NCBI GenBank assembly: GCA_026770705.1 | Contig: JANJGN010000034.1 | Coordinates: 4,402,001 to 4,466,000 of the forward strand | DNA: 64,000 bases | Direction: 5' to 3' | Origin: Isurus oxyrinchus | Lineage: Eukaryota | Part shown: positions 2,281 to 63,203 of the stretch, piece after piece | How the letters are laid out: each line of letters starts with the position of its first letter | Position numbering within the stretch: position 1 is the stretch's first letter | The notes under the pieces: generated by a model | Seen by the model: the letters and a program-made list of their open reading frames with translations, nothing else | The model's database searches: none | Told to the model about the DNA's origin: nothing | Position numbers and translations under genes: made by a program

Positions 2281-2284
2281 GGAG

Positions 2285-3200: not shown

Positions 3201-3214
3201 TTTCTTTCTATCGT

Positions 3215-13876: not shown

Positions 13877-13912
13877 AGTTAATGCGATTGAAGGAAAATA
13901 TTCACAACACAG
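13877..13912 (+). CDS. 36-nt phase-1 microexon (ELMRLKENIHNT)
   Basis: ttttaaattcag|AGTTAATGCGATTGAAGGAAAATATTCACAACACAG|gtaaga. Confidence 0.8.
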
Positions 13913-14571
13913 GTAAGAATGTGCAGCAGCGATTTATGTTCAACTTTTTATTAAGGCTGCTCATTACGACATCCTACTGCGTATAAAAATAAATGTTGTC
14001 CTTCGAATGTTAACTTTTTAAGCATATTGGAATGACTGAAAGATTGCCTTAAGTTGCTTTTAATTGGGCTTAACCGCAGGTAGCAGAGAAAATCATGGTG
14101 CAGGGATTGTAATCACACCACTGCGGTAGATCACCTTTAAAACTAGGTAAAAAGAACCACATGTATTTTTAAAAAGTTATATTAATTATGATAGGCTGCA
14201 GATTTTTTGATCATTATTATGATAATCAAAATTGTCTTGTCTTATTCATCCTATTCAAATAATAAATATTTTTTATCATTGGTATAATGAAGGTGGTTAT
14301 TATTGTGGTCATTATTATCGTCAGAATGTTAACTTTAACTGTGACTTGTTAATTATTAAATCCCATGATGTATCAATAGTATTCAGAGCTAAAGGCATAT
14401 TTGCATTAAAGTTGAGCGAAACCTACGTTATTCATGTTTAATTTAGTAATGGATGTTTCCCTTGTCATTATGAAGTATGAATCATTTGGTGTCAGAATGA
14501 AATCTCATCAGTAATTAAGCATTGATTTGCTATTTATTAATAATAATTTTCCATCACATCTTAATATTTAG

Positions 14572-14598
14572 ATGCCAAGCTGCAAAAGTACGAGGAAG
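14572..14598 (+). CDS. 27-nt phase-1 microexon (DAKLQKYEE)
   Basis: catcttaatatttag|ATGCCAAGCTGCAAAAGTACGAGGAAG|gtaggc. Confidence 0.8.
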
Positions 14599-15480
14599 GT
14601 AGGCCTTCTTAGTCTCGATTTAACAAGAACATTTGATAGCTGTTCACAATTGCCTTCAGGAGATGGTAATGACGTGTGATCTTCCATCATTATAGTCTAT
14701 GTAGTAAAACAAACAAGCACTGTTCAAGATAACGGCATTCATGGATATTCTCATCGTAACATTGTAGGAATGATGATATACTTCCAGGTCAGATCGGTGT
14801 GTGATTTAGTGAAGAACTTGCAGTTGTAAGTGTTCCCAATAATTTGATGTCCTTGCCCATCATACTGTAAGATATAATGGGTAACCGTTGTTGGTGAAGG
14901 AGATTACACTTTTTGTTGCATTTGGAGTTCTTAGCCACTGCCTCGACTGTGCGCCAGTGGTATAGGGAGACAGTTACAAAGGCAAACAATGGAATGTCGA
15001 AAAGAAGGCAACTTTATCCTGCCTGGAGTCGAGCTTCTTGAGTTTTGTGACCTTCATCCGCCTCCCACCTGCGACTCTGAAATTGATCGGATGCATTTTT
15101 TATTTGTTTTTTTCACCTGTTTGCCTTTAAGCATTAAATTCTAAATTATACGTCTAAGAAAAAAAGAGTTAATGACAGTTGCAACGTTACTAGTTATCCA
15201 GAAAGCGTATGGCTCAACAGGAAAGCATGCTTTTTGTTTGGCAAAAATGGGGATTTGGCACATTGTTCTTTGAATGATCCGTTAAATTTAGAGGCTATAG
15301 CGAAATGGTTGTTAAATTTCTTGGAAAAATTATTTTTAGAAGGACATTTGACGATTGAGTTATGGTGCTTATTTACACAGCTGTCGAAATTATAGTAGCA
15401 TTGGCAAAGCATATTGTTTGATGAGGATTGGCCTTATCTCCTCAATTAAATTGAAACGTTGTTTCTCCTCTTTTTTGTAG

Positions 15481-15536
15481 TCTCGGAGGAGCATGCAGAA
15501 AAGAAAGTGCCTCAAGAATGGAATCCATCACTTTGA
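15481..15536 (+). other. Exon-like segment without a matching donor; reads through as VSEEHAEKKVPQEWNPSL*
   Basis: Strong acceptor tttctcctcttttttgtag. GGAGCATGC core shared with the 40107 fossil. No GT at +27 or +36. TGA at 15534-15536; AATAAA at 15772. Confidence 0.4.
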
Positions 15537-17758
15537 TAGTGTGCCTTAACACACCGTATTTGCTATATGCCACTGATGAGTGCCATCATCTCTTGTTGGT
15601 TTTACACTCATCCAGGGAAATGATAGCAGCCATCTCTGTGATTGTGGTCAGCCTGTTTTTCAGTTGATGAGATACTCACCATTAAATTTCCTGCCTCTAA
15701 TTGCATTTGCGTGTCCAGTATTTAATGGACGATGAAGATAAGGTCGGAAGTTTGGTGGTGGTGGAATCACCAATAAATTTCAACTGAATGCAAAGGTTGA
15801 AGGGATAGCAGTTAAGTGAAATGGTTATTGATAAACATTGTGTTGTGTTGTGAAAATCTGCAATACGTTCACCTCATAATGAAGACAAGGTTAATGTTGA
15901 AGCATCTGTTTATGAGCCGGCCGAGTGCACTACCATACTGATCCTCACAGTATGTCCAAAAACTGAGATAAGCTCCCTTCATTAGTCGCAACCACTTTCC
16001 TCTGTCCTGTGCATCACTTCAGCAATAGAAAAAATCAGGCATGACTCCAGTAGACTTCAATTGTGCTCGTGCTCTTGTGTACCTCCCTAGACCAATGGTA
16101 GCTGTAAGGTCTCACACCTCAACTCTTCTGTCCAGATCCGTTGTCCAGGCCTCAGTAATGGCAATAATGAGGTCAATAGCTGAGTGTCTCCGTTGGATCC
16201 AAAATTAACAGCAGCAAGTGTGTTATTGTCACTGAGGTCCCTTCCAAAACATTCCCAACAACTTCTTACATCAGAGTGCCTGATCACCGAGGACAGCCCA
16301 ATGATGTAGTAGATAGGAAGAAGAATTTATTCTTTCGTTGCTAAGGAAAACATGTAAACAAATGATGCCTAGTCCTCAGGATGCGTTTTGTTTTCCACGT
16401 CCAATTGGCACATGAAGCTGAAGGAAGTTAAAATGTGTTCAAACTTGTATTTTGCAATGACGTGTCGAACACCGCCAATTTTGGGGGTTCGATGTTTCTG
16501 CAGCCTGTTTATTGTGTTAATCGTTTACTTTTAGAATGCTACTCACGTCTTGATGTGGCTGTACTGCAGTGCTTTCGCCAAACCTATTATTTATGTATTT
16601 ATTTAATTATTTTCCTGTTTTACTCCATCGATCTCAAGCTGTTGCGACTAAAACCTCGCAAATTTGCCACAAGTGTGCATAGGTTATTGAGGAGGCCTGT
16701 CAAGGCCAATTGAGAAATATGTTACCTCGGAAATTTCTGAAGCAGAGTTTGGTATTTGGTGCTCGCTCATTTTTATTTTCCTGTGTGCCATAATGAATAT
16801 GATTCTTAGTCGGTTTATAATCCAAACTTTCTATCCCATTGCACTGGTTATATCTTATTTGTGATTTTTCCATTTCGTACATACATCTGGAATATGTCCT
16901 TATCATTTTCAGTCCAGTATTGGCTTTCAGACTGGTGTTAGGATTTCACTGGTGTGATAATATTGAGAGTCATTTCTCAGGGGTTATGGAGCAAGACTGG
17001 CCACCATAGTTCTTAAACTTCGGAACCTAAAGGGCGCTAAATAAAAAATGAAAAGTCATCATTTAAAGAGACAAAGACATTTGCCTTGGATATTCGTTTC
17101 TTTTGGGATGCATTAAACGCCTCGGCATTTTTCATGCCCTTTGCGATCAGACATAGAAGTTGCAAACATAGGCATTACTGAAGTAGTAAAAGAAAACTGA
17201 AACAAGTTAGCAATCACTGTCCTGATGGAGGATCTGAAAACTGATATGTTATATGAACGAGGTAGACATATCTGAATGCCCTTAATCACTACTAGATGAT
17301 GGAGACACAGTGAACACTTTGTGCGATATGAATCATGATATTTGAATTAAATCTGTGTAAAACGTTGTCTGGCAGTCATGTGTATTGGGGGGAAATTTAA
17401 AAACGTAGCATCGTGATGCGAGACATTGCACACATTGGCCTATTTTGGCTTGCACTTCAACTTGAAAGGAAGTATAAATACTGTAACGCCAGATTTACAA
17501 CCAAAGCAAATGGATTTCTGCTCCAAAGGTCATTCAATGAATTAAAATGCTGGTAGGATTAGTGGACCAAAAATTAAGGAGCCGAAGACACAATTTAAAG
17601 CGTTTTTATTTTGTGTCAAATATCCATCAGTAAAATATACAATGATTAAGATGCCGCAATGCAGATTGCACTTGTGAATCCATCTTGAAGTAATTTAATA
17701 ATATATGGTTTCATCCTTTAATTTCGAGAAGCTGGTGATTTCTGAATGATTTTCACAG

Positions 17759-17794
17759 AAAACGAAGATCTGAAGATTGCTCTGAAAGATGCAA
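17759..17794 (+). CDS. 36-nt phase-1 microexon (ENEDLKIALKDA)
   Basis: gattttcacag|AAAACGAAGATCTGAAGATTGCTCTGAAAGATGCAA|gtgaga. K.ALKD is shared with 56718. Confidence 0.7.
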
Positions 17795-18039
17795 GTGAGA
17801 AAGCTCACCGAAAAGTGCTCACAGCCCCCTTAGTACTTTATTTATAATCAGGAAAGTCAGAAATCAATATGTCACCTTGTCACGCCAAGGTAGAGAAATA
17901 AAAGAGCCTGTGTTTATGCTCAATTTTAAAGATATCTCAAAATGTGGAGGCGAGGAATATCGCACAACATTCTTGCTACTGAACTGTATAGTGTTAACAT
18001 CATATGATAAAAAGTAATGTTCAGCTTCCACTTATATAC

Positions 18040-18890
18040 CTGACCTTCTGTCTTGTGCCATTTCAGTCAAAGGCTTTTAATCAGTAATTGCCCATTTATT
18101 CCGCTGCTTCATCAAGTACCTTCCCTCTGTCATATTGTTTGATGTGAGGCTGTTTGCTGATGATTGTCAAAATTCAGGGACATTTACGACTATTCAGATA
18201 CCGTATCAGTCCTTTTCCAAACTTTAGAAAAACCTGGGCTGTATCCAGGCTTGAGTTGAAAAGTGCCAAGAAACATTCCCACCACACAAGTGCCAAGGAA
18301 TGACCATTTCCAAGAAGACAGAGTGCAAGAATTGCACATTTACATTCGAAGTTATCGCCTACGCTGAATCACACACTTTAAGTATCCTGAGTGTGACCAT
18401 TGAACAGAAACTGAATTGTACTAGCTGTGTAAATGCTATGGCCACAAGAGCATGTCGGGGGCTAGAAATCCTGACTTTGCAAAGCCTGTCCACCATCTAC
18501 AAGACACAGGACAGCAGTTTGAAGGCTTGTCCTCCACTTGCTTGGATGATTGGAGCTCCACGACCTTCAAAAAGATTGAGACCATCCAGGACACAGCATC
18601 CTATTTCATTGCAACCCCACCCACAAATATTCACTCCCTGCACCAGCGACGCACATTGGCAGCACTGTATATCAACTACAAGATGCACTGCATGAACCCA
18701 GCAAGCCCATTTATACAGTGCTTGCCTAACTCACGACCACTACCATCTAGAAGGACAAGGACAGCAGACATATGGGAATATCACTACCCCCAAAGTTCCA
18801 ATCCAAACAAATTATTTTTCTGACTTTGAAATGTTTCGCCATTCCTTCACTGTCACCGAGCGGAAATCGTGGAAATTCCTTCATAACATG
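18040..18890 (+). mobile_element. Decayed L2-like LINE 3' part
   Basis: LFADD motif (ctgtttgctgatgat, ~18150), then PHKCQ.MTISKK and TNIHSLHQRRTLAA..YKMHC. Confidence 0.85.
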
Positions 18891-20640
18891 TTGACATATG
18901 AATGCTATGGAAGTGTGCTTTACATCAGTACGTGAACATCACTGAATCAGTATGGATTGCTGCAACACTCGGAAACACCATGGTCGAGTTTTCAAATGTT
19001 TGTTGCGCTTTTCCAGATGTTTTTGTGCCCATAGTTAAATACCTACATCGGGGGGTTTCAAATGACCCTGATACGCCAGCCCAGCAAGCCAGTCAGTACT
19101 ATAACATATTAAAATTTAATAATTTCCCAACAATGAAAGGACATTTTGGATAACTTTAACTTCTTTGCACTTAATGTACAGCACGTTCACGAGGTTTGCA
19201 GAGTCATCTCAGAAAAGCATCCGCTTACTACCACTTAGGGTTTATCTGCTTTCCTCCATGTACTACGTCAAAACCACTTGTAAAACTCTGGATTAGCAAG
19301 AACGCTAATTTTATCCATTCAGCGATACACCTAGGCTGATGATATCCATTTACAACTTAGAGTTCAGGTGGGCGACATAACGGGAAGATACTGCTACATC
19401 TCAAAACCCGAATATATTCACATATCAATTGGGCACTAAACTTCATAGCTACGGATAACAATTGTTTTCCAGCCAATTACGTCTCGCAATGAGGTCTTTA
19501 TCAGAGTCATATAACCTGTGTTCCTTTTATGGCTATGATGCACTGTCACTTATTGTAAAACAAAATATAAAAGCAACTTCGCCTCTAACACAAAAATTAC
19601 ATGCAAATATCAATTATGGAACTACATAAGGAATAAGCAGCATACCTAGATCTCTTGGCAAGTTTGCATTTTCCACTTATTTTTAAATTTCATGGTGAGA
19701 AATGGCACCATTAATTCATTGGATTATAGAGGTGAGAAGTATTTATTTTGATGTAGCTTGCTTCTCCTGGCGTCTTGAAATATCGATCCAAGTCGTTTCA
19801 CTTCTTGTATATTTCCCCACCCCATCCACATTTAAAATCGCCTTTGGAAGGTAGCAATGAATCTTCGCCCACCTTCCGTTCTGACAGTAACTATTCGGTG
19901 CATTTTTTTTTTGATAATTACTTTAAACACATGTCCACATCATCGGTACTTTCCTGCCATTAACAATAATCGTCTTGCCCCACAGACACGAACAAAATCT
20001 TACCAAATTTCAATGCACTCACTATTCATTCATTAATCCTTCTCACTCGAAGGACATTGGTTTCAATATGTACAAACACCCCGCCTCCCCCACAAAACAA
20101 TAGCAACAATCCCACATAGGGAGATGGTTACTGTTGCCAATAACTCCCAAGAGACTTTCAGGGCTTAATATGGTGATTATTATAGGTGCAAGAAATTCCA
20201 CACAAATATATAACTGAAGTCCGCCTAATTGCCGATAATTCACAGCCGTAACTGACTTGGTTTTTCCTTCCCCGCCACTCATCTTCCAGGACCCTGCATA
20301 TTTCAAAAACATAATCAACTTTTCCTCACAAGATTTAAAAATTGTAATTGTAATCGCTGGGCTACAAATTCACTTTTGCCACTAGGAAATAGGTCCTTTC
20401 ATTTTATACTTCCTCTTGCATGATAATTTGAAGTCATTTTTTCTATTTGCTAATGGTGTATTTCAATCCGGTGTCCATGTATACTGATGCATTTAAAGCA
20501 ATCTTAACTGCAATTTATCAGTGGCAAATTACTGACGTAGTTGTTATAGTTTTTAGCTAACGGGGATGGGGATACATAGTGAGTTGGAATTCCAGCATGA
20601 GTATTTATTGGCACTAGAATCTAAATTTGCTTTATTTCAG

Positions 20641-20667
20641 AGTTGAAATTGATTCGTTGGCAAAGTG
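20641..20667 (+). pseudogene. 27-nt exon (xLKLIRWQS) with donor GT>AT; possible in-frame cryptic GT 3 nt upstream
   Basis: tttatttcag|AGTTGAAATTGATTCGTTGGCAAAGTG|ataagt. The paralog at 47319 has gtaagt. Confidence 0.7.
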
Positions 20668-20789
20668 ATAAGTTACCAGCAAAATGCTTTATAAGAACAG
20701 ACGAAATAGAAGATGAAGTATTCGGCTTTGTGAATCGGATTCACCATATGCTTTTTACCTCTCTTCTACATGTTCACATTTTTCTATAG

Positions 20790-21150
20790 AATCCTATCCC
20801 AGAAAATACCCAGAGCCTTGAATATACTCAACAACTGACAATTCACAGGTCTCTCTGTAGATAATTTCAAAGAACCAAATAACTTTTTGCAAAATATTTC
20901 TAATCATTTCATTGTTAAATATCGTTGCTCATATTCCAAAATTATTCCCCCATTATTTCAGTTCTCCTGACAGGGAGAGGCGTTTCATACGATCGATAAT
21001 ATCAAGTTTCTTCAGAATTTTGAATGCTTGGAATATATCAGCTCACATGCTTCCGAACTTCAAGCCTTACTGGGCGAATCAACACAGTTTTTTTTCCCCC
21101 CTTCGTAGGCTGTTCACGTCTTATGACGAACCAATTTTGATGTATTCCCA
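20790..21150 (-). mobile_element. Decayed CR1 3' fragment (paralog ~47480-47830)
   Basis: Reverse complement reads ..gcattcaaaattctgaagaaacttgat..gttgttgagtatattcaaggc, typical of the CR1 ORF2 C-terminus. Confidence 0.6.
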
Positions 21151-21299
21151 CAAGGCGATATGTCATTATGTCACTGGACTGGATAGCCAGAAACCAAGCT
21201 AATGGCTTCCGTACAACAGTTCAAATAGGACGATTGCTTGTGAAGTTTGCATTGAATAAATAACTCTGGATTCATAACTGGACGCAGTAACATTCACAA

Positions 21300-24065
21300 T
21301 GACAAGAGTGAGATGTTTGTAAAATTCCATTGTGATCACTAATAAACCTTTACGTTGTTATATCATTCCCAGCGAAATAGTATTGGCATTATCGAAGAGC
21401 TTGTAAATAGCTCTGGAGTCATTTGTTCATAATATAAACTTAATGCAGAAATCAGATGCATCGAAGGCATCCTACAGGATAAACGTTATTCTAATCAGCT
21501 CATTTCGGGTTGTCTTTCGTGAAAACACATGAAGGGTGCGAAGGCCATCCATTCCATTCCTGAAAATGTCACAGCCTGCTTCAGATTGCACTGGGAGCGC
21601 ATATTATCTAAAACAATTTAAAGCCTTTCGTGTTGTTATTGCATACCAGCAACATGGAATAGTGAGATCTTCACCTGCTTCAGCTGTTGTCAAATGCCGT
21701 TCTTTTTCCCCATTTGCTCCGTTTACTCCGCCATATACCTTCAATAAGTGACAGCACCATAAACAGTATCTATTTGCAACCAATAAGCAACAGAAAACCT
21801 CACAAGCCAGCGAAAATTGGCAACCTAATTAATGATGACTGTAAACACCTAATAAATCTCTCTGACCAAATGCTCTCAGTAAATGAGGAGCTTGGTTTTG
21901 CGGAGGTTTCAATCTGGATGTGCCTTCTTCCCAAATCAAACGGGAAGAGGTACCAGCTGAATTCAAACTCCATTACTCACAACAATCACGTCACAAACCA
22001 GCGTCCATGGGCCTTAGCTGATCTAGCACATGGGCATTGTTTTGACATGCAAAATGACGGCCTGAATGGCTTGCGAGTCCTAAAAAGCAAGCCCGAGATA
22101 CACACAGTAATCCTGGCAAATGGATGATAATAGTCATTCACAACAAACGTGACCATATCAGCAAAATAAGCACCATTCTTAATGCTACTTCTAAATGCGT
22201 ATCCTTTTTACATGCTGCTCAACCTAACCGGGCAGACTTGCATTAATTAATGTGAAAACAAAGTGATGAGCATCTGAATGATACAAATGAGAGTGCTCGG
22301 GCTCATGGTTCACTACTTTTGCGTCTGTCTGGGTGCCCCAGTAACGCAAAAGTAATGTCCCTCTACAGATTCTCTTATCCACAACTACTTCTGCACAACA
22401 TAATTCACCAAATATCTGTGCGAACTGGTAATAACCAGTTTTGCCCAAGTTTTCCCCAAACGCAGGGAAGGACACCTTCACTCTTGGGGAGGCCACACAA
22501 GACTTCCCTAGCGATAGCAATGCTGCACTAATGCGCTTATGTGACATTACTAAGCTAGTCAATATTGCTCGAATTAAGGAAACCATTTATATATGCGCTG
22601 TAGAACTATATCAAACCGATCAGGACCGGCCACCATTATATGAATCAGTATTCATTAAAAATTATGTACTCAGCAATTCGGGCTGCTTGGGGCTGTTTCA
22701 ATGACACCATGGATGCCCAAATAGTTGGTCTTGCCACGGGATCCCCTCTCGCCACATCTGTTGCAAACGTCTTCGAAGTTTCCATGAGAGTCCAGTCTTC
22801 GATGGAATGACACAGATATCTCCATCACTTGCTAATTCCCAATATGTAAATGATAGATTTGCTATTTTTAAATCAAAAAATGCAAGTAACAATTTACTTA
22901 AGTACCTTATTTTTTTGCAACCTGCATTCAAATTTACCTATAACATTAAGCAGCCAAATGAACCCCCCTCCCTTGACGTGCACTTTGAGTAACTGCCACG
23001 GGATTCTCTACAACGATATACCACAACCCTGCCTTCCCTGGCTATTATAAACGTTGGCATCCTTACAATTGCATGCGCTAAAATATTGGTATTATTTGCG
23101 AAGTTGTAAATGGGCCCAAGTTATTTGGTCACCATGCAAGCTTGGTGCTGATATAGGGCACCACATAGGCACCCTGCAGGAAAATGGCTACGGTGATGAA
23201 CTATTGTTGCCCTGTTTATCACGCAAATTCACAAAAGGGTCAAAGGCCATCAATCCCTGCCATCAAACGCTCCCAGTCTACCTCAGAATGCCCTGGGAGA
23301 AAACTGTCTCTCAAAAATATGAACAACAGATGAGGCTCGTTGTTTCATGCAGTAGAAAGCTGAATGGTTTGCGACACGAACAGGATATTGCCGTCCAGGA
23401 AAATGACATGCTGTCTATCACATAAATGAGCAGTGTGGTATTTGATCCTCGGTGCCAATGTGAGGCTAGGTATGCAGGCCATACATCTCAAAGACTGGCA
23501 GATCGGATGGAACACTCTGTTCCATTCGCTTTTCGCAATGGGCAGGCTGCAGATGGTACACAACCAACCCGTGCTTGCAAAACACCAAAACAGGGTGTTT
23601 GACGTCAGGTGTGATTCCTCAATTGGAAATGATTTGCTCTATATTACTCCATGTGCTAAGAATTATGCAAACAGCCAATGCAAGTTTGTCAGTCAGGCTC
23701 GCAGTGTGGAGCATTTGCATGTCGTTGGGTTACATATATTAACATATGGATTAATGTTCTTTGCACACAGAAAGAAAACGTACATATATTGCATATTTTT
23801 CTGCTAGTAAACAATAAGAACCAGGCATTCACTGACTCATTCCTTAGGGAAATGGCTTGATCAAACAGAGTTAACATTTCAAACAATCCTTGGCAGTTAA
23901 CTGTGAGCAACCATTATTGGTGCATTCACAATGGCAATGCCACTTGCCAACAAATCAACTTTTCTTCACATATAGTGTAAATTGTAAATTTTTCCAAAAT
24001 ACCGGTATACTTAGGAGGGTCCTGACCAGTGCAAGACAAACAGAAATTTCTCTTTTATGAGTAAC
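21300..24065 (+). mobile_element. Penelope-like retroelement, near full-length decayed ORF preceded by a partial tandem fragment
   Basis: INLSDQMLS N-terminal block, then CDITKLVNI..KETI, a G.A.GSPL..ANVF remnant and RYVDE (copy 2), then GIY-YIG-like VVFD.RCQC.ARYAG.TSQRLADR. 21300-21690 repeats 23050-23350. Confidence 0.85.
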
Positions 24066-24194
24066 ACTCAAATAAAACGTAACATGCAGTTTGCTTTCAC
24101 TCTGGCTTTGGTGCCTTTTAGTGCAACTATTAGATAGGCTATTATTCTAATATGCTTTTGAAAGAAACATGTTTATTTTTTCGCTGGTTTGCAA

Positions 24195-24231
24195 AACTGA
24201 AAACTTTGCTACGTATCATTAAACAACTTAA
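24195..24231 (+). pseudogene. Fossil 36-nt exon with acceptor CAG>CAA, 1-nt insertion and GC donor
   Basis: ggtttgcaa|AACTGAAAACTTTGCTACGTATCATTAAACAACTTAA|gcaaga. Aligns with 50872 and lies ~1 kb upstream of 27-nt exon 25202. Confidence 0.6.
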
Positions 24232-32120: not shown

Positions 32121-32149
32121 CATATTGCAGCATTACATTAAGCTGCAGA

Positions 32150-51868: not shown

Positions 51869-51895
51869 GTGAAAAGTTGGAATCAAAAGAAGACG
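51869..51895 (+). CDS. 27-nt phase-1 microexon (GEKLESKED)
   Basis: ccttttttttacag|GTGAAAAGTTGGAATCAAAAGAAGACG|gtatgt. Confidence 0.85.
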
Positions 51896-54800
51896 GTATG
51901 TTTGCAATTATTCCTTCATAACTGCAATACAAATCGAGGTTGTTGCATTTTTTCCGAAGGTTGTTCAACAATCTGCTTTGTACAAGGGCTTCGTGAAATG
52001 ATTTGGCATTTGCACAGTCCTGGTTCATGTTTAGTCTGACCAAGTGATAAGCGTCAACATGGGAGCTGAATGCTGAACACCAGCTACTTTGGATTTTAAC
52101 CTCAGATGAGATTCTGGTGCCGTAGTAAATGTGTTATTCACTTCTGCGTGCGCCAAATGACTTTTAAACATTGAAGGCTGTTGCTTTGGTGTCATTTGGG
52201 GCGCAAGAAATTCAACAATATCCAACAAGTTAAAATAGTAATGCCTAAATTTACAAAAAACTAGAACTGACTACCTACTTAGTTTACATTGGTTAATAGA
52301 AACCTCTATCAGGAAAGTAGGACTTTCGAAGCTACTGAGCAGCCTATATGCAAGTAAAGGCCCAAACTAACACTTGACAAGGAAAGTTGACAAGTCCTTA
52401 CCAGCAGTATAACACATCTCTGAAATTAGAACAAAAGTAGGTCCTTCTGAGAAAGGACATTTGACATATTTTCACAGTTCCCTGCTGGTTGTGTTTGACG
52501 CAGGAAGGTAGTGTCGGTGTGCTGGAGAGAGTTGAGCGCAACATAATCACCCTATGGCCCTTCAGTTGGCTGTCTCTACCGATGCGATCTGTCTCCAACT
52601 TTGCATGAAAGTGATGCCTGCATTTGGCACAGTTGAGGCCACAACGTCAGTCGTTCCTGCATAGATTCAATGGTGAGGATGACTGGATGAGGTCAGGACA
52701 TATGAATGAGGTGACGCTGGAAGGTGGCCATGTTCTTGCAACTAGCGGTAATATGAAGGGGCCCAAAACCCATTAGGGCCTCATTTTTGTATTTGTTGCA
52801 GTAAAGTATCGCATCTCCCCACACACATCCACATACGCAGGCCACATAGGGTCGACACACTGCAGTCCGTTGTTGCAACCTTATATCTTATATAATCCAT
52901 TAAGACACAACACTACCTACCACACCCCCAGATCTCCACTTACATGGGCTTTGAACTTGACACTCACTTGGCCCTGGAGTCCGACCCTAGAATCTGCCTG
53001 TAGTTCCACGCTTGGCCACTGTTTATTCTGGCACTGCTGGCATTAAGGAACTCATGCAAATCTGATAACTCCGACAAGTCACTAAGCCAGGATTTCCGTA
53101 GATTTGGGGCAACTCCTGTCTCCAAACAATTCACGCTGATTAGAGACATGAATGGCAGCGAGGAAATAAGCATTAGCGAGGATGTGGCAGGCCAGGCAGA
53201 CATCCGGAAAAAAAAACTAATGCCTATGGGATTCAATTTCCTCAAGCATTCATGGCTTAATTTTCACTGGGGCCATACCCAATGCCATAACTCCACGATG
53301 TTTTTTAGTGCTTCTCCAATTCTGGCAACTTCTATACCGTGTTGCTTTCTTTATTTTTCATTCATGGGATTTGGGCTTCACTGTGTGGGCTAGACTTTAT
53401 TGCAAATCCGTCGTTATCCGTGAGAAGTTAGTGGTGAGCGTCCTTGTTGCACTACTGAAGTCCATGTGGTGAGCGTACCACACAGTGCCGTTAGGAAGAG
53501 AGAAAAATGGTTTAGACCCAGAAACAGTGAAGAAATGGTTATTTGTTTCCAAGTGAAGATGGCGAGTGACTTGGAGGGGAATTTCCAGGTGATGGTATTC
53601 CAAATTATCTGCTGCCATTGCCCTTCTAGGTGATAGTGGTCGTTAGTTTGGTAGGTGATTCAAAAGCGGCTTTGGCGAATTTCTGCAGTTCTTCATGTGG
53701 ATGGTGCAAATTGCTGCTATAGTGCATCGATGGTCATGGGAGTGAACGTTTGTGGGCGTGGTGCAAATCAAGCGGCTGCTTCGTCCGGAACAGTATAAAT
53801 TTTCCTCAGTGCTAGGGATGCTTCAGTCATACCGCCAAGTGGAGTGAAATAAATCGTACACCGGATATGTGCCTGGCATATGGCGGAGACAATTTGTGGT
53901 CTCCGGAGGTGTTTTTCTCCTCGCAGCATTCCTACGCTGTCACCAACGCTTTTAGTCACAATATCTTTATGATTAGTTCAGTTCAGTTTCTGGTCGATGA
54001 CACCTTTCCGTATGTTGATCTTTTTGGATTCAATGATGTTAATGCTATGGAACCTCAACAGCGATGGTAAGACTAATGTTTGATGAAGATAGTCATTGGC
54101 TGGCACTTGTGTGGGGTGAATGTTGCTTACAACTTTTCAACAGAGGCCTGGAAATTGTCCAAGTCATGCTGCATTTCGATATGGAATGTATCCGTGTCTG
54201 CCGAGTTGAGAATGGTGCTTAGCCATGCGCAATCATCAGTGAGCATCCCCACTTCTGTTCTTTTGATGGAATGAACATCGTTCATGAAGCAGTTGAATAT
54301 GTTTGGGCCGAGGACACTAACCTGACGAACAACTGTAATGATGCCCTGAATCTGATATGGCAGATCTCCAACAACCACAGCCATCTTCCTTTCCTCTTGG
54401 CATTGCTCCAAACAGTGGAGGGCTTTCATTTTGAATACTATTGAGGCCAGTTGTTCAGGGGTTCAAGGATACGACACCCGGTCAAGTGCAGCCGAGATAT
54501 CCAGCACATTCATTCCCAATACATTTCTTAAGTTCAGATTTAGCCAAAGTTTCACCCAAGGCGGTAATGATCTAAGAGTTGCGTAGCCCTGGCATAACAC
54601 AAACTGGCATCACTAAGCAGTTTATTGCTAAGCAAGTGCCACTTTTTAACACTGTTGATGACGTATTCCATCAAATTAATGATAACCGATAGTGTGCCAA
54701 TGGGGTGGGAATTGGTCGCGTTGGATTTGTCACACTTCTTTGCTTAAAACATATTCCTGTGCACTTTTCCTAATTGTCTGCTGGAGGCCAGTTTTGTCAC

Positions 54801-56717
54801 TATACTGGAAAAGTTTTACTAGGTGTGCAACAAGACCAGGATCTCAGGTCTTCATTGCATTACCTTATAGTTGCCAGGGCCAATAACCTTTGCAATATTC
54901 AGTGTCTTGATATTGCATGGAATGAATTTAATCAGCTGAAGACTGGCATCCCTGATAACGGGGAACTATAGAGGGGGCTCAGGTGGATCATCCGTTCTGG
55001 CGCTTCTCTCTAAACATTGTAGCTAATGCTTCATACTTACCTTTTGCTCCGGTGTGCTGGCAAGTTCTCTTCATTGAGAATGGGAACCTTTGTGGATCCT
55101 CCTCTTCCATTGAGCTGTTTAAATGTCAACAATATTCCCGTCTCCATGAGGCAGCGCTTCAAGCCTTGAGTTTGATCAATTGGTTGTGGGACAGCTTAGC
55201 CCTGTCTATCACAAGCTGCTTATGCTATTTGGAATTTAATATTCTCCAGTGTTAGAGCTTCTTGAAGTTGATACCTCAATGATAGTCATGCTCGATGCTG
55301 CTCCTGGCATGCAAACCTACATCTTTTACTGAACCCTTTCTTGATGATAATGGTAGATTGTTGCAATGCTGGGCCAAGGCGTTGCAGATCATTTTCGAGT
55401 GCAATTCTGGTGCTGATAGCACACAGCGCCTCGTGGACATGCCGTCTTGACTTGCTATGTCTAGTCACAATCTAGCCAAATTAGCATTGTGCTAGCGCCA
55501 CAAAATATGACGTCAAGCTTCCTTAAATGTGAACACTTGACTTCGTCTCCACAGGGCCTGTGTGGTAGCAACTTCTATCGAAACTGTCATGGCTAGATGC
55601 ATCTGCGGCCGGTAGGTTTTTGAGGATGAGTTCACGTTTGTTTTTTCCTTTTTTTTGCTTCCCCACATTCTGCTGCAGACCCACTCTACCAGCAATGTCA
55701 TTTAGGAAAGCCCAGCTTGGACATTAGTGACACTACAGAAGTAGAACTTGTTGATGGACATTTAATTTCCCCAGCCAGAGTGCAACCCTGCCTCCCTCAG
55801 TGCTTCCTCCAACTGATGATAAACGTGATTCAGACGTAGTAGTCAGCAGGAGAATTCCTTGCCCATGTTTGACCTGATGCCATGAGACTTCATGAGTATC
55901 AGTGTCCATGTTGAGTATTCCAAGGGCGATTCCCTCCAGACTTTACAACACTGTACCAGTACATCCACTGGTGCACAGGACTTACCCAGCGATGACCATG
56001 GGGGCATTATTTGTAATGAATTAGTACATGAGGAGAAGTCTATCAAACTGTTACACGAGCAGTCTTTGAAACAGCTCTCCTAATTCTGGCACTAGCCCCC
56101 AGTTGTTAGTGAGAGGAGTTTCACGGTAGACTGAGCTAAGATTGTCTTTGTCATTTCAGGCGCCTCAGTCGATGCTTGGTAGTTGTAAGGAATTGTAACG
56201 GACTGACCCACCTGACTGACTTGCTAGACAACCAGGATGTGAACCAGATGACTTTTTTACCGCAACAAACAATATCTCCCTTGTCATCTCTACTTACAAT
56301 TCCAGATTGTTGTTGGATTACACTTTCATCAATTGCCGTGGCGGGAGTCGGACCCTTGTCCCCAAATTAGTAACCTGAGCTTCGGGTTTACTACTCCTTG
56401 GACAACACAGCTAGGCATCGCATCCCCCTCGTTTTGCTGCAGCTATGTTAATTCTGAATTCTTGCCAAAGAGCAATTCACTTTGCCATGTGTATCTCACA
56501 TCCTATGCCAATCCTTAAAATCCATTACTTTGATGTATCATTGGCCATATTTACGAAATAACCTCGAGGCTTAATGGTCAAAATGTTGAATCTCCTTCAA
56601 TGATTGACTGTCACTTTAATGGAATTTAGGAACGCTTCATGCAAAATGCACAGAAAACAAGAAATGTAATACCGTTTGACATGGACGTGCTCATAGTTTA
56701 TTTTTTCATAATTTTAG

Positions 56718-56753
56718 AGCTGAAGATGTATAAAGAAGCTTTGAAAGATTTAG
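56718..56753 (+). CDS. 36-nt phase-1 microexon (ELKMYKEALKDL)
   Basis: ttttttcataattttag|AGCTGAAGATGTATAAAGAAGCTTTGAAAGATTTAG|gtgagc. Confidence 0.85.
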
Positions 56754-57089
56754 GTGAGCAAATTCGTTCTTCCCTTTTGAAACACTTGCAACATTATTGT
56801 GCAGTCCATATCATGTTGACTGTCAATTTAAACTTCGCTCATTTCTCAATTAATCTAAGGAAAAATGAATTGCAATGCCGACCGACCCATGCAACACAAG
56901 CTGCTCAGCAATTTCGCCACAGAGCTTCATGCTGAGGAAACGCGAGCAACAAAATGTTAAGGCGGTGACGGTTCCCAACATTCTCTCAGTTACGACAATG
57001 CTGAGAACTCACAATTGTTCTGCAGGATGGCATTTTCGTCTCCGACATTTGCTGTTGAAACTCATTATCAATAAAATTGGTCCTTGCAG

Positions 57090-57116
57090 GAGAAAAGCTG
57101 AAAGCCAAAGATGACG
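57090..57116 (+). CDS. 27-nt phase-1 microexon (GEKLKAKDD)
   Basis: ggtccttgcag|GAGAAAAGCTGAAAGCCAAAGATGACG|gtatgt. Only phase 1 is open. Confidence 0.85.
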
Positions 57117-60100
57117 GTATGTAGTTTTGAATTTCAATTGCTATAAATGCATTATGACGGGTGCTAGTAAGATAAAAAAAAACAGACGGCGCTAAGTAAT
57201 TCAAACTAGTTGGACCTGTTCACTCATTTGCATTATAATATTGTTCCCCATAAGAGGAGGTAGAAAATAATCTTGCAAGAAAAGCATAAACACGACGACA
57301 CTGACATTTAGCTATTTATAGAAATGCTGATGACCGATGACTTGATGACATTTATGCTGACAATCGAAAAAAATAATGTTATGGGATATTGAAAATCTGA
57401 TTTTGGTTAGATAGTGCACCCTGGGCATGGGAATAAGTGTGTTCCCCCTTTCTCGTGATGCACACTTTTCATCTAATGATGCAAATCCTTGTTCTGAGAC
57501 AACAGTGTTTGTATGCCTCTCAGCAGCCAACATATCGCAGTATTGCACCGTTTCCTTTCTATTCTTTAGCTTGCAATTGCAGGAAGTGGAATTTATTGAA
57601 AACAGCTCATCACTTACTAATATAAACTTTGAACTTTAACATTTGCTTTTGAATTTCAATGTACCCAAATTAGAACGATCGTGATTCTGACACACAAATA
57701 CAATCCAACATGAGGTGTGTTTATCACAATAAAATATTATGCCCGGAATTCAGATGCGTAAAATATTCTCGATATAACTATTGGTAGGGAAGAGCTTTTA
57801 AACATATGGGGTCTCGTATTTTACAGATAGATCAGAAGATTATTTTTCCCTCAGAAGGTTTTGAATTTTCCTAAATGCCGTCCCCAGAGGTCGCGAATGA
57901 GGAGCCATTGTAAAGAGCTGGGAAGGAGTTTTGAACTAATACCGACGGTGCCGACATAACAGCTTTCTCGGCAAAGAAGTGTCAGATTGAAGACAACATG
58001 GGAAAGTGTGAGGTAATGCAATATGGTAGGAAGAATAGAGCGATATATTATTTTATAAATGGGGAGAAAATTCAGACATCTTAATGGCATAGGGACTTGG
58101 GAGTCCTGCTCTATGTGTCTCTTAAGGTTAACTTGCAGGTTGAGGGGGTAGTTAGGAAGGCAAATGCAATGTTGGCATTTATTTCGAGAAGACTAGAATG
58201 TAATAGCAGAGAAGTGCTGCTGAGAGTTATAAGGCTTTGGTTGGACCACAATTAGAATGTTGTCAGCAATTTTGGGCCCCGTATCTCAAAACGTATTTAC
58301 TAACCCTGGAGATGGTCCAGAGGAGGTTCACGAGAATGATCCCAGGAATGAAAGGCTTAACAAATGAGGAACGATTGAGGACTCTGGGTCCATACTCGAT
58401 GGAGATTATAAGGACGAGGGGGGATCTGATTGCTACCTACAGAATACTGAAAGGCCTGGATAGAGTGGACTTGGGGAAGATTTTCCATTTCTAGGGGAGA
58501 AAAGGAACAGAGGGCAGAACATCGGAGGATGGGAAAGTCTTTGCGGAGCAGAGAGGAGTAGAAACTTCTTTTACCAGATGGTGGAGAATCTATGGAATTC
58601 CTTGCCACAGAAGGCTTGAGTGTATTGAAGATGAAGAAAGATATGTCCTTGATTGTTGAAGTCAATCAAAATATATGGGGAGCGGGCGGGAGAATGGGAT
58701 GCAGAAACTTATCAGCCTTGACTGAATGGCAGAACAGAATCGATGGGCCGAATGGCAGAATTTCTGCTGCTATGTCTTATGGTCTTCACATGTTGGAGCA
58801 TTACATTAAGCTTCAGAGATTAGAACAGTTGGATCTGGGCTGGCATTTTATGGTAAAATAAGGGCAATAATGAGAGAATGAAAGCAGAACTAGCTAATCT
58901 GAACCGCTACGTTTTATTAATGGTTACATAAATAAAGATACAGTGGCAGGAGTTTAAGGAGATATTTTAGAATATGCACATTTCAACGAGAATGGACAAT
59001 TGTTGTTTTTTGGAAATCATCTAAAACAATTCATTGCATGTGTTGGAAGAGATAACTAAAGTACTGCACAAAGCGAACAACACATTTGGATTTCCAAAAG
59101 GTATTTGATTAGGTGCCACGTGAAAGCTTATTGCGAGTTATAAACGCTAATGATGTACAGGTTAATGCATTAGTATAGGGCGATGATTGGCAAGCTAATT
59201 AGAAACAGAGGGTTGACATGAGAGGAACTATTTCTGATTGGCAGGTTTCACAGACTGGTTTGCCAGAGGTAAAGAGTTGAGTGACACACAGATCTTTGCT
59301 GTGGTCTCAGGTTTTACAATTTATACAAATGTCATGGATGAAGGGACAAAAAGTACAGAGATTAATTTGCTGATAACACGCAGGTATGTTGGAAAGGAAA
59401 ACGTGAGAATGGCATAAGGAGGCTCAAATTAATATAGATAAGTTATTGATTTGGCAAGATCTGGCTAAAAAAGCATGAAACCTAAAAATATGGAATTGAC
59501 CTTTTGGAAAAAAAATTAAGAAAAGATGCATATCATCTAAATTAAGATACATTGTAATGCTCTGAGTTGCAGTGGGGTCCACGTGTCCAATTGCATGAAT
59601 CGCAAATCTAGTATGAGTGTTCTAAATTTAATTAGAAACCATGCAGAATGTTAGCGTTTATTGCACAGAGAAATGAATACAAAAGTAATGAGTTTATGCT
59701 TCATCTGTGCAAGGCATCTCTGAGACCGCATCTGGGGTAGGGAATGTTTTCTGATTAAAGGTACAATGTAAAAGCATTGGATGCATTTGGGAGAAGGTTT
59801 ACTAGATTCATAGCTGGAATGAAAGTGTAGCCTTATGATGAAATGTTGGAGAGGCTAGCCATGTATCTGGAAGAGCCGAGAAGAGCAGAGTGCGTCTTGT
59901 TTGAACCATTTACAATCCGGGGGTTCTTGATAAGGTGGATGCGGAGACGTTGTTACCTCTATGGAAGGATCTATAACTGGGGTATACTGTTTCAAACTCA
60001 AGTGGTTGCCGACCTACGGTAGAAATGGAAACATTCTTATATTATTTTCTCTCTCAGCCATGAGACTTTTCAGTGAAATATGATGGAAGCAGGCTATTTG

Positions 60101-61727
60101 ATTTTTTTTTGAGGCATAAGATAGATTAGCCATATATTGAAAAGTTATGTTTTGTAGGTGAGAATGTGGAGTTCGAGCTTTCCATCAGTTTGGCCATGAT
60201 CTTATTAAATGGCATAGCCAGTCTGAAGAGCGGCCTGGCCCACTGCTGCTAATAATCCGTATGCTTGTATTAAACTCATCACAAAGTTTGTTCAAGTGGA
60301 GTGAAAGAATGATGCGATTTCCAGAAATTTTGATTCCTTGATTAAGGATGCTTGATGAGATCTGCACCTCCTAACCAGAAAGCAAACACGTCAAGTTGAT
60401 TGTAAAGGGCTCAGTGTAGCACATAGCTGTTACTATGTTCCCAATCCATGTAGGGCATAATTATAATTGAAGAATATCTTGCTGCTTGCAGATGTTGTTT
60501 AAAAAAAAAGAAACATATTGTCTAGCACGGTTTACAACAGAATCGTTCTGTTCAATAATCGGTGTGGAATTTCTGGCTAAATATTAGGAAGATTAGGAAG
60601 ACGCCAAAATTAACTCCTGACCACCTAGAGACAAGCTAATCCCAGAGGAGGAATATCCGGATCACTTTCACCAACTATCAGTGTGCAAGTGAAATGTTTA
60701 TGGTGCCGAAAACGGCGGAGGGGGAGGAAATATGTCACCTATCATCTATGAAATAATACTCGTTTTTTCATCTTCAGGACAGACACATTTTTGCGGAATG
60801 AGCAACACAATGGAAATGCTAAATCATAAGAAATATTAACATTGGCAGGCCATTCAGCAATTTGAGACTGCTATCTTTAAATAAGTTCATTGAGAAAAGT
60901 TTTATCTGCTTAACACAATTTTCCTCCACTGTCTCAGACCACTTGGCTAACTTGAATAATAAAGCTGGTTATAACGGAGCTTAAGTGCATTAATGGCATG
61001 AATTCACCGCTCTTTGTGGAATAATATTTCAAACCTCTCAGAGCGCATATTAACATGAATATATTCCTTAAATATGAATAAATCATCTTTAGCATTTCAA
61101 CAAATATGTGACACGACCTAGGTAGACAGTGGGCGAGTGAAGGCAACTTTTTGTGAAAACATACAGTTCCTCAAGAAAAAGTAACATAGTAAACAGCAAT
61201 GTCTTACAATTCTGCATATTGCAGAACAATCAAGAAAATTAAGGAACAACCAAACGAGCCGTTGCATAAAACAGCACAGGAGGATGCATTTCACAAATCA
61301 GTGCTTTGTAAGGCCTTTTGAAGAACAATCTGATTGACAGAATTATATTTGGGTGAACAAAGGAACACTTCTTGTCTTGGGCGTTGATATAACTTTCCCT
61401 GAAAATTAAACATCCGCTTAAACACATTGCCCTGATTATTTTCAACCATTGCAATAATTGTCTTGGATATTCCTTTGTGCATACTGAAGCCTTCGTTTCC
61501 AACCTCATGAAACTGAAAAGCTTGAAGTCTAACTCTCAGGTTAGATCGAGGTTCCGGACGCTTTGTCCAGAGAATGTCATTACAGAAGCGATTAGCTTGT
61601 TTATTTTTTTCTTTCCTGTCATCTCATTTCATTTTTTTTCTACACTAAATATCTAGACGGTGAAGCATGTATTGGAGAATTTAATCGCAATAAATTTTCC
61701 TGATTTTTTTTTTTTGCTATCACGCAG

Positions 61728-61763
61728 AACTCGATGCATGCAAACAATCTTCAAAGGATCCAG
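61728..61763 (+). CDS. 36-nt phase-1 microexon (ELDACKQSSKDP)
   Basis: ttttttttgctatcacgcag|AACTCGATGCATGCAAACAATCTTCAAAGGATCCAG|gtatga. Confidence 0.8.
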
Positions 61764-63176
61764 GTATGATTGAGATTTATTTGCATTTGTGCATCACACT
61801 CCGTTATTCCATAATTAAACGAAAATAAAGAAACATTTCAGTGTTCACGTGTCTCAAAGTGGGAATAAACAAATAATGTTTTTTTTTCAAAACAGCAGGA
61901 TGTAAGTACAGGGTCACCCATGACTGACATAATGAGCATTAAGTTCCGTGGAGTATGCTGACTATTGATTTTCTCCAAGGGAATATGCGTACAGCAGGAA
62001 AGGTCTATAGTTGTCGCTCATTCCAAATAGCTACTTGGAAGAGAACTGAAAACCTGGTGCAGTGTGTGAAAGAAAATCTAACCGCATTGCACCATATTAG
62101 CGTTTTTTTTCGAGGCGACACACTCTGTTCGAACACAACGTAGGAATGGGATAAGAAAAGGCAAATTATTCTATCAAACTTTCAATAAGATCATGAATGA
62201 GTTCTACTCAGCTACTTGTATCGCTTTAGTTAAGTCAGACTTAAAAACTGGCCATCCATAAAAGAATGATAACATCACTGTCACGACTTTAAATTACTGT
62301 ACAGGGTTCAAGGTTCTGCGCGCTCTGTGACGGACTCTTCCATGGGCCACGTAGACCTACTGAGAAGACTTTCGTTTTTCTCCCTCATATCAACTCAAAA
62401 CGCTTTCGACACAAGCAATTTAATGTTCATCATCCCGACTCGGCCATCAGTGGATTTGTTTTAAGCCTAAGTAAGTGATCAAGCTCTCTTTCACATTTTT
62501 TTGATTCATTCATGGGATGTTGGATTAGCTGGCTCAGCCAGCATTAACTTCCCTTGTTCAGGGGGTAGCTAAGAATAAACAAATTTGCTGTGAGCCTGGA
62601 GTCAAATGTGGACCAAATCAGTTCAAACCAGGCAAGGCCAAATCATCAGTGACATTAGTGAATCAAGTGGATTTCCTCCCTGAAAATCGGCATTGGTTTT
62701 GTGATTATCATCAGGCATGTAATTCCAGACTTTTTTTGAATTCACATTTCACCATCTGCCACAGTGAAATGCGAACCCACGTGTGCAGAGCATTACCCTG
62801 AGTCTCTATAGGACTTGCTCAGTAAAAATACCATTCCATCGCCGCCTCCCTCAAATTTTAATCGGATCATTCATTTTCGTCCTGAATTCAAATGATTTAA
62901 TTTATCATCTTGGAAACATTATCCCCACTGTACCATTTTAAACAAAGCTATCGTTGCAGTGAGTCTTCATTTCCTGTTTTTCAAGACGGCTATATCCTTA
63001 ATTAACAGTGGCGCCCTTCAGTGAAAATAAAATTCAAAACAGGGTTCAACAGTTAATATATCTAACTACAAAATTTATGTGAGAGAGCTCAACTAAACAC
63101 CATGTGCTTTACAAGTCCAAATCTTAATGACAATGTGTGTTGTTTTTTTTTTTCTATTTTGAATGCAATGATACAG

Positions 63177-63203
63177 AACGAAATGATGCTGCAAGAGAAG
63201 AGG
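63177..63203 (+). CDS. 27-nt phase-1 microexon (ERNDAAREE)
   Basis: gcaatgatacag|AACGAAATGATGCTGCAAGAGAAGAGG|gtaatc. Confidence 0.8.

What the first reader, a model, noticed from the sequence alone, without database searches (positions are those of the whole stretch)
13877..63203. 36+27-nt exon pair equals exactly three heptads: an exon-encoded coiled-coil module
Seen: the exons come as 36-then-27 pairs (13877/14572, 17759/20641, 30010/30410, 35086/36510, 38848/39312, 56718/57090, 61728/63177). Each pair is 63 nt = 21 aa. Examples are ELKMYKEALKDL-GEKLKAKDD, ELNICKTALKVL-EKKLKDKDD and ELMRLKENIHNT-DAKLQKYEE, with hydrophobic residues mainly at 2,5,9,12,16,(19). That is 3-4-3-4-3-4 a/d spacing continuing into the next pair. 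Inference: neither exon alone is a whole number of heptads, so skipping one keeps the reading frame but shifts coiled-coil register. Splicing could therefore tune both rod length and continuity.
Basis: partly seen in the sequence, partly recalled or inferred. Interest (0 to 1): 0.8.

Follow-up and report, generated by a model that had tools for sequence, protein, structure and literature searches.

The report
Giant shark micro-exon coiled-coil genes
The tiny alternating 36- and 27-base exons are a slice of a roughly 830-kb gene of a shark-like genome that is predicted to use about 250 such exons to build a very long, likely secreted coiled-coil rod tipped by a B30.2 binding domain, one of five similar genes lying side by side.

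Summary
The exons are real. The window is 64 kb of a predicted 828-kb gene: a candidate signal-peptide exon, a 111-nt exon, about 249 phase-1 micro-exons (94x36, 112x27, 43x21 nt) and an intact B30.2/SPRY exon. 36 and 27 alternate (167 of 205 junctions; shuffles 102±7) and heptad periodicity peaks at 3.5 only in genomic order, so the three-heptad reading holds, except that position 19 is mostly Lys. It is an alternation, not a directional pair, and 46 of 248 junctions break register. Four more B30.2 exons of this subfamily lie within 4.8 Mb, with the same micro-exons between them. Database models from chimaera, skate and electric ray carry the same 12/9-residue modules, two start with a signal-like segment, and some isoforms differ by single 9-residue blocks. 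Best reading: a likely secreted parallel coiled-coil rod whose length changes by exon birth, death and probably skipping. It resembles BG/butyrophilin heptad-exon tails but lacks Ig and transmembrane exons. No transcript of this gene was seen; function is inferred.

The parts
1..64000 (+). The whole window lies inside the predicted 828-kb gene. Parts outside the window: candidate first coding exon G000:C34:3989194-3989215, 111-nt exon C34:4005537-4005647, about 228 further micro-exons, terminal B30.2/SPRY exon C34:4816507-4817027
6537..6563 (+). 27-nt phase-1 micro-exon (missed by reader)
10832..10867 (+). 36-nt micro-exon (missed)
11267..11293 (+). 27-nt micro-exon (missed)
12375..12410 (+). 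dead 36-nt exon, local duplicate of 13877, donor is TT
13071..13097 (+). 27-nt micro-exon (missed)
13877..13912 (+). 36-nt micro-exon
14572..14598 (+). 27-nt micro-exon
17759..17794 (+). 36-nt micro-exon
18188..44854 (+). first copy of a 26.7-kb intragenic tandem duplication (second copy starts at 44852 and runs past the window end)
20641..20667 (+). 27-nt exon copy with AT in place of the GT donor (dead, or used as 24 nt through a GT at 20665)
25202..25228 (+). 27-nt micro-exon (missed)
30010..30045 (+). 36-nt micro-exon
30410..30436 (+). 27-nt micro-exon
35086..35121 (+). 36-nt micro-exon, poor heptad (Pro at 12)
36510..36536 (+). 27-nt micro-exon, poor heptad
38848..38883 (+). 36-nt micro-exon
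39312..39338 (+). 27-nt micro-exon
40107..40142 (+). dead 36-nt exon (in-frame stop, no GT)
41401..41436 (+). 36-nt micro-exon (missed)
42480..42506 (+). dead 27-nt exon (AT donor; its duplicate beyond the window has GT)
47319..47345 (+). 27-nt micro-exon (intact duplicate of 20641)
50872..50907 (+). probable dead 36-nt exon (no AG), weak score
51869..51895 (+). 27-nt micro-exon (missed)
56718..56753 (+). 36-nt micro-exon
57090..57116 (+). 27-nt micro-exon
61728..61763 (+). 36-nt micro-exon, poor heptad (Pro at 12)
63177..63203 (+). 27-nt micro-exon, poor heptad

Best explanation
The window's alternating 36- and 27-nt exons are predicted to be spliced, with about 230 similar exons outside the window, into one mRNA for a likely secreted protein: signal peptide, a parallel coiled-coil rod of up to about 2,400 residues, and a C-terminal B30.2 head. 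SHOWN from sequence: exon lengths, phase, alternation, heptad periodicity, the intact B30.2 exon, the five-gene cluster, the dead exons. INFERRED grammar: a 36-nt exon enters at heptad position g and leaves at d, a 27-nt exon enters at e and leaves at f, a 21-nt exon is one g-to-f heptad; so 36/27 alternation or runs of 21 keep register, while a lone 27 adds a nonad (+2) and a lone 36 adds +5. INFERRED structure: Leu-rich a positions, mixed Lys/Leu/Cys d positions (Cys could cross-link chains outside the cell), and complementary g-to-e charges give a parallel homo-oligomer, about 360 nm if every exon is used. INFERRED dynamics: because all exons are frame-neutral, rod length and kinks change by intragenic duplication, splice-site loss and probably exon skipping. 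INFERRED role: a long extracellular stalk or fibre that displays B30.2 heads for binding (innate-recognition or matrix/gel protein); tissue and ligand are unknown.
For: Length enrichment vs minus strand. 249 exons at score >=15 in gene 1 against 3 minus-strand hits in 1.06 Mb. Alternation 167 of 205, shuffles 102±7, max 130 of 10,000. Periodicity and register tables; 202 of 248 junctions in register. g->e(+5) pairs 104 attractive: 31 repulsive of 329, shuffles 65.5±5.9: 75.6±6.0. SPRY E 2.9e-14; only one B30.2 motif in the 1.06 Mb fetched. Paralogous B30.2 exons at C34 2.71(-), 3.47(-), 6.40(+), 7.50(+) Mb; of 16 interior 10-kb samples, 15 hold exons on the matching strand and 2 also a single 21-nt hit on the other strand. 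Closest proteins are shark (S. torazame 61%, C. punctatum 51%). Skate XP_055510696 and chimaera XP_042192744 (1697 aa) start with hydrophobic signal-like segments, carry the same 12/9 modules (parse scores 20 vs 5±3, 159 vs 44±9, 71 vs 24±6) joined to this B30.2 subfamily (clade 100/99). AlphaFold2 of the skate protein makes residues 67-104, which hold the modules, one helix. Constraint: among 27/36-nt copies, 2 have only a stop vs 30 only a dead splice site (p 4e-4 to 9e-3); duplicated exons differ 9.5% vs 15.5% for the whole duplicate (p 0.0015), 0 of 14 a positions changed. No Ig or TRIM domain in 75 upstream ORFs; no transmembrane-like stretch in the rod.
Against: Joining all 249 exons gives 4 junction stops, so the catalogue holds some false or incompatible exons. 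Two exons with intact AG/GT carry stops (184107, 399745 in extended window numbering) and must be skipped; 399745 is the positional counterpart of a module present in the skate model. dN/dS is 1.04 on 10 duplicated exon pairs (27 changes). 46 of 248 junctions break register, 26 of them 27->27. The first exon is only a candidate: the gene1/gene2 pair ranked joint third of 168 by DNA similarity and the ATG context is weak. Electric-ray and one chimaera model lack a hydrophobic N-terminus. N-glycosylation sequons are not enriched (10 vs 9.0±2.8). The peptide profile was trained iteratively on the same exons, and exons are duplicates, so positional and charge statistics are not independent samples.
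Confidence: 0.6

Rival explanations
1. Same exon-coded rod, but membrane-anchored or cytosolic: the short N-terminal hydrophobic segment is a reverse signal anchor (or is absent in some isoforms), so rod and B30.2 sit in the cytoplasm like a butyrophilin/BG tail without its Ig ectodomain.
For: Basic residues follow the hydrophobic segment in the chimaera model and in gene 2; electric-ray and one chimaera model have no hydrophobic N-terminus; best PDB sequence match is the intracellular BTN3A1 B30.2 (E 2e-20); BG and BTN heptad-exon tails are cytoplasmic (PMC5938342, PMC8813856 passages); sequons not enriched.
Against: Hydrophobic segments are short (mean hydropathy 2.7-2.9 over 12 residues, only 1.5-1.6 over 19 in the skate and chimaera models); a phase-1 intron splits the candidate leader as in many secreted proteins (recalled); 59 Cys sit at d positions; the chimaera basic stretches read as furin-type sites (motif recalled; sequence).
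Confidence: 0.22
2. Gene 1 is a decaying or largely silent copy: the exon array is a relic of a once-functional rod gene, now drifting, and the heptad pattern is inherited rather than maintained.
For: At least 33 dead 27/36-nt exons, dN/dS about 1, two stop-bearing exons with intact splice dinucleotides and 4 junction stops.
Against: Intact 172-codon B30.2 exon; deficit of stop-only exons; exon divergence below intron divergence; a positions unchanged; 14 of 26 junctions that contain dead exons are in register without them.
Confidence: 0.1
3. The array is a combinatorial diversity cassette: only small, variable subsets of exons are spliced into any one mRNA, giving many short isoforms, and no full-length rod is made.
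For: All exons are frame-neutral; skate and electric-ray models are short (295-378 aa) and the ray and chimaera isoforms differ by 6- or 9-residue blocks; ESM Atlas clusters of long SPRY proteins carry names up to 'isoform X51' (membership in this family not verified); some same-class exons lie 149-357 nt apart.
Against: Register is kept along genomic order over runs of up to 34 exons, which random subsets would not need; a 1697-aa chimaera model and Atlas clusters of 1277-1802 aa exist.
Confidence: 0.08

Closest known systems
Chicken BG genes (butyrophilin family; PMC5938342, passages read)
   Same: Long coiled coil encoded by many tiny exons with a split first codon; 21-nt one-heptad exons; exon number varies between genes; alternative splicing of the tail; multigene cluster.
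   Different: BG has IgV and transmembrane exons, 27-37 heptad exons in the alleles described, and no B30.2. Here about 250 exons, mainly a 36/27-nt two-exon three-heptad unit, no Ig or TM exon found, and a B30.2 exon.
Butyrophilins BTN1-3 (PMC8813856, PMC12841164, passages read)
   Same: Heptad region directly followed by a B30.2 domain; BTN3A1 B30.2 is the best PDB sequence match.
   Different: BTNs have IgV-IgC-TM and only a few heptads; the present genes have none of the former and about 340 heptads.
TRIM proteins of the TRIM7/21/39 type
   Same: Coiled coil plus PRY-SPRY; 29-35% identity in the domain; Foldseek best hit TRIM7 B30.2; databases name the relatives 'TRIM39/58/69-like' or 'A33-like'.
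   Different: No RING or B-box found; B30.2 forms its own clade; rod is micro-exon coded and charge pattern fits parallel packing, whereas TRIM dimers are antiparallel (recalled).
Enterophilins; secreted B30.2 proteins such as ohanin/vespryn; CD23 stalk; schistosome micro-exon genes (all recalled, none seen in a call; searches returned nothing)
   Same: Respectively: long leucine zipper plus B30.2; leader plus B30.2; 21-residue coiled-coil repeat per 63-nt exon; short symmetric exons in secreted proteins.
   Different: None, as recalled, combines a leader, hundreds of alternating 36/27-nt exons and a B30.2 head.

Membership tests
Butyrophilin (BTN/BTNL) | Extracellular IgV(-IgC) exons | tested here: not met
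   0 Pfam hits in the 75 longest (>=90 aa) of 185 plus-strand ORFs from 140 kb around both gene starts; motif scan of 1.06 Mb; four relatives show only SPRY/PRY. The whole gap between gene 1 and gene 2 was covered; ORFs crossing 10-kb locus borders could be missed.
Butyrophilin (BTN/BTNL) | Transmembrane segment before the heptads | tested here: inconclusive
   No 19-residue hydrophobic stretch in the rod (max 0.99); only a short N-terminal hydrophobic segment. No SignalP/TM predictor available.
Butyrophilin (BTN/BTNL) | Heptad exons followed by a B30.2 exon | tested here: met
Chicken BG | Many 21-nt phase-1 heptad exons | tested here: met
   43 such exons, mostly one block at -331 to -215 kb; the majority class is 36/27 nt.
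Chicken BG | Single IgV plus TM, no B30.2 | tested here: not met
   No Ig found, B30.2 present.
TRIM | RING and B-box upstream of the coiled coil | tested here: not met
   no such Pfam family in the four relatives scanned or in the upstream ORFs.
TRIM / BTN ancestry of the B30.2 | B30.2 nests within a TRIM or BTN clade | tested here: inconclusive
   13 family rows form a 100/99 clade apart from 10 TRIM-type rows; no BTN rows were in the tree and the root is only the midpoint; the paralogue at 2.71 Mb was dropped by my ORF filter.
CD23/DC-SIGN-type C-type lectin stalk | C-terminal C-type lectin domain | tested here: not met
   Terminal exon is B30.2; none of 133 listed Lectin_C matches lies on C34 (150 of 615 candidates scored).
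Coiled coil (parallel homo-oligomer) | Heptad periodicity and complementary g-e charges | tested here: met
   (sequence statistics only).
Coiled coil (parallel homo-oligomer) | Oligomer formation | not testable with these tools

The most novel reading that the evidence does not exclude
Cartilaginous fishes have an undescribed family of megabase genes, each with roughly 250-350 micro-exons (gene 2 extrapolates to about 350 over 1.5 Mb, near titin's recalled 363), that encode secreted, Cys-stapled coiled-coil rods with B30.2 heads through a three-letter exon code (21, 27, 36 nt) in which exon order sets heptad register, so that tissue-specific skipping programs rod length and the position of kinks or beta-layers.
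Probability: 0.35. Interest if true: 0.88.

Novelty: new variant of a known kind. Interest (0 to 1): 0.72.

Why it matters
If right, a 4.8-Mb cluster of some of the most exon-rich vertebrate genes is hidden in shark genomes under misleading names (stand-alone 'hypothetical' B30.2 proteins, 'TRIM39-like', 'nuclear-pore anchor-like'), likely because gene finders miss 27-36-nt exons. It offers a natural experiment on how exon length encodes coiled-coil register, a possible extracellular use of B30.2, and a link to the origin of BTN/BG heptad-exon tails. The family spans chimaeras, skates, rays and sharks in the models seen.

Tried and rejected
RNA: no RNA holder was listed for window 35000-42600 (five same-label runs with 0.00 share). 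Contigs of 4 runs laid on the B30.2 exon region gave no cover of the exon, and 4 runs laid on window 24900-44800 covered repeat-like stretches, with no joint at exon ends among the 15 joints shown. These blanks say nothing about expression. Complex prediction of a skate-protein dimer was not available, so there is no verdict on oligomer state. CD23-like lectin stalk rejected. Search for an Ig/TM/RING 5' end found none. A search of the genome with the 111-nt exon peptide found only itself. A 'longer' search with the skate protein found nothing although a 1697-aa relative exists, so that tool's blank is weak. An earlier count gave the first-exon context as a strong Kozak; one search shows it is not. 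Idea that dead exons are lost in pairs to keep register: not supported (1 of 26 groups sums to a multiple of 7). Literature: searches (B30.2+heptad+exons+shark; enterophilin+B30.2; egg case+coiled-coil+SPRY+shark; cartilaginous fish+secreted+B30.2+coiled-coil+signal peptide) returned 0; 73, 78 and 81 listed papers whose titles and abstract starts do not concern this family (passages of two were read); a shark egg-case paper recalled by DOI is not held. Subscription journals are not searched, and no supplements were read. Three look-ups in earlier scan findings were empty. Flank ORF scan (49 of 625 ORFs) gave repeats, transposon domains and two Ig exons.
Full report
Coordinates outside 1-64000 extend the window numbering (contig position = 4402000 + coordinate on G000:C34).

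1. Observation. All 14 coordinates were read. Thirteen are AG...GT-bounded 36- or 27-nt segments open in phase 1. The fourteenth, 20641, has AT after 27 nt; its duplicate at 47319 has GT. The lengths are not chance: with intron-side splice scores alone, 36-, 27- and 21-nt candidates number 69, 43 and 22 on the plus strand against 15, 10 and 9 on the minus strand, other lengths averaging 11.5.

2. Extent. The window is G000:C34:4402001-4466000 of a 4.98-Gb genome. Walking outwards showed the array continuing from about -392 kb to +410 kb. It ends in a phase-1 terminal exon at +414507 with a 172-codon open frame that is a SPRY/B30.2 domain (E 2.9e-14). It begins after a 111-nt phase-1 exon at -396463 whose paralogue lies at +457457, where a second array starts. 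A candidate first coding exon of ATG-led 7 codons + 1 nt exists upstream of each (ending at -412785 and +452740); joined to the 111-nt exon it would give a 12-13-residue hydrophobic leader. This assignment is weak on its own: 14 and 12 candidates passed my filter and the chosen pair ranked joint third of 168 by DNA similarity. The span is about 828 kb.

3. Catalogue and grammar. An iterated splice-plus-peptide model gave 249 exons at score >=15 in gene 1 (112x27, 94x36, 43x21; 2,437 codons), with 3 minus-strand hits at that score in 1.06 Mb; lower-scoring candidates were dropped. Exon order is not part of the model. Among 27/36-nt exons 167 of 205 neighbours alternate (shuffles 102±7, maximum 130 in 10,000). 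There is no preferred direction: 80 36->27 and 78 27->36 junctions, median introns 1454 and 1541 nt. Hydrophobic periodicity peaks at 3.5 residues (0.88) and falls to 0.32±0.05 when exon order is shuffled. Assigning 36 = g..d, 27 = e..f, 21 = g..f gives a = 81% LIVMFC, d = 45% (Lys 95, Leu 63, Cys 59 of 343), other positions 7-15%. With this grammar 202 of 248 junctions are in register (shuffles 127±8; window 18 of 20). g-to-e(+5) pairs are 104 attractive to 31 repulsive of 329 (shuffles 65.5 and 75.6), the pattern of parallel homo-oligomers (established knowledge). The peptide profile was trained on these exons and the exons are duplicates, so positional statistics are partly circular; the length, order and periodicity tests are less so.

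4. Alive or dead. Searching without the AG/GT or open-frame requirement found, among 27/36-nt copies, 145 intact and open, 30 with a dead splice site only, 2 with a stop only and 6 with both (the 21-nt class was left out of the test). Stop-only copies are rarer than mutational opportunity predicts (p 4e-4 to 9e-3 for transition bias 1-6), as expected if included exons must stay open while loss by skipping is tolerated; the matrix was trained on open exons, which may bias this slightly. In the 26.7-kb duplication exons differ at 29 of 306 sites against 15.5% overall (p 0.0015), no a position changed (0 of 14), yet dN/dS is 1.04. Against a clean model: 4 junction stops when all 249 are joined, and two stop-bearing exons with intact dinucleotides (184107, 399745). 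Of 26 junctions containing dead exons, 14 are in register without them and 12 are not: exon death sometimes repairs and sometimes breaks register.

5. Family. Four more B30.2 exons of 40-59% identity (E 9e-66 to 7e-45) lie on C34 at 2.71(-), 3.47(-), 6.40(+) and 7.50(+) Mb; the next match elsewhere has E 4e-35. Fifteen of 16 interior 10-kb samples carry the same micro-exons on the strand of the nearest downstream B30.2; the four samples containing a B30.2 exon and one at 3.90 Mb have none. Gene 2 samples give 14 exons in 60 kb, about 350 over 1.54 Mb by extrapolation. Nearest proteins are shark models holding little more than the B30.2 exon. Longer models exist: skate XP_055510696 (295 aa), electric ray XP_069775384-90 (353-378 aa), chimaera XP_042191566-8 (218-230 aa) and XP_042192744 (1697 aa). 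The N-terminal parts of the skate, ray and giant chimaera models parse into the same 12-, 9- and 7-residue modules well above shuffles; the skate reads 9-12-9-12, with segments matching exons 398207 and 359861; the chimaera giant also has 12-12 neighbours. Of three intended controls, P0135 and P0005 (TRIMs) scored near their shuffle maxima, and P0059 scored above but proved to belong to the family clade. Skate and giant chimaera models start with a hydrophobic signal-like segment; the ray and short chimaera models do not. Isoform models differ by single 9- or 6-residue blocks; these are annotation models, and I did not see their exon borders or read support. The B30.2 domains of 13 family rows form a 100/99 clade apart from 10 TRIM-type rows. 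AlphaFold2 on the skate protein gives long helices at 17-54 and 67-104 and a beta-strand domain (mean pLDDT 73.5). ESM Atlas clusters of 1277-1802-aa SPRY proteins with unrelated names are a lead to further members.

6. Mechanism. Shown: anatomy, statistics, cluster. Inferred: splicing into one reading frame (supported by relatives' models), a parallel coiled coil of up to about 360 nm, secretion, Cys cross-links at d, and a binding role for B30.2. By PMC4786415 (passages read), insertions of 5 residues can be delocalised within a helix while insertions of 2 break it into beta-layers in trimers; so losing a 27-nt exon (+5) should be milder than losing a 36-nt exon (+2). The genome does not favour the mild case (26 27->27 vs 9 36->36 junctions), so either breaks are tolerated or some adjacent 27s are mutually exclusive.

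7. Comparison and novelty. Exon-per-heptad tails with split first codons and splicing variation are known in chicken BG genes (PMC5938342, passages), and heptads plus B30.2 in butyrophilins (PMC8813856, PMC12841164, passages). These genes fail membership of BTN, BG and TRIM (no Ig, RING or B-box) but are built like a hugely extended BTN/BG tail. The named searches found no description of the family in the open library. I rate it a new variant of a known kind, interest 0.72: the scale, the two-exon three-heptad code and the likely extracellular location would surprise specialists, while expression, topology and function remain open.

Noticed in passing
G000:C34:7513514-7513960 (+) (L132:5514-5960) and 7540864-7541319 (-) (L135:2864-3319): The cluster's right flank holds a nectin/PVR-like V-set exon (best PDB matches nectin-2 and nectin-1) and an I-set Ig exon, hinting at an Ig-receptor-rich neighbourhood.
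   Followed up: partly
G000:C34 about 4.07-4.19 Mb (extended window numbering -331502 to -215600): A block of mostly 21-nt one-heptad exons, of two kinds (Cys or Lys/Asn at d), very like BG tail exons, inside the same gene.
   Followed up: partly
G000:C34 about 4.53-4.63 Mb (extended window numbering 127000-223000): Successive 36-nt exons often alternate between a Cys-at-d and a non-Cys type, giving a 42-residue (six-heptad, four-exon) super-repeat.
   Followed up: no
extended window numbering 366278 (99 nt) and 387046: Possible longer phase-1 exons among the 3' micro-exons; not validated.
   Followed up: no
G000:C43 (about 0.02-6 Mb): Many tens of C-type lectin exon matches in a dense tandem array on one contig.
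   Followed up: no
G000:C21:82-118 Mb: More than 100 TRIM/BTN-type B30.2 exons in one region, possibly MHC-linked.
   Followed up: no
G000:C34:3100001-3110000 (L103, minus strand): A 36-nt exon resembling the near-N-terminal exon of genes 1 and 2 lies mid-way between the 2.71 and 3.47 Mb B30.2 exons, so the minus-strand side may hold another gene boundary.
   Followed up: no
P0098 (chimaera XP_042192744) residues about 905-1020: A Thr/Asp/Pro-rich 8-residue tandem repeat interrupts the rod, and polybasic furin-like motifs follow the leader.
   Followed up: no
extended window numbering 224205-238089: A near-identical 7.4-kb repeat gives two copies of the same 27- and 36-nt exons: a very recent duplication or an assembly artefact.
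   Followed up: no
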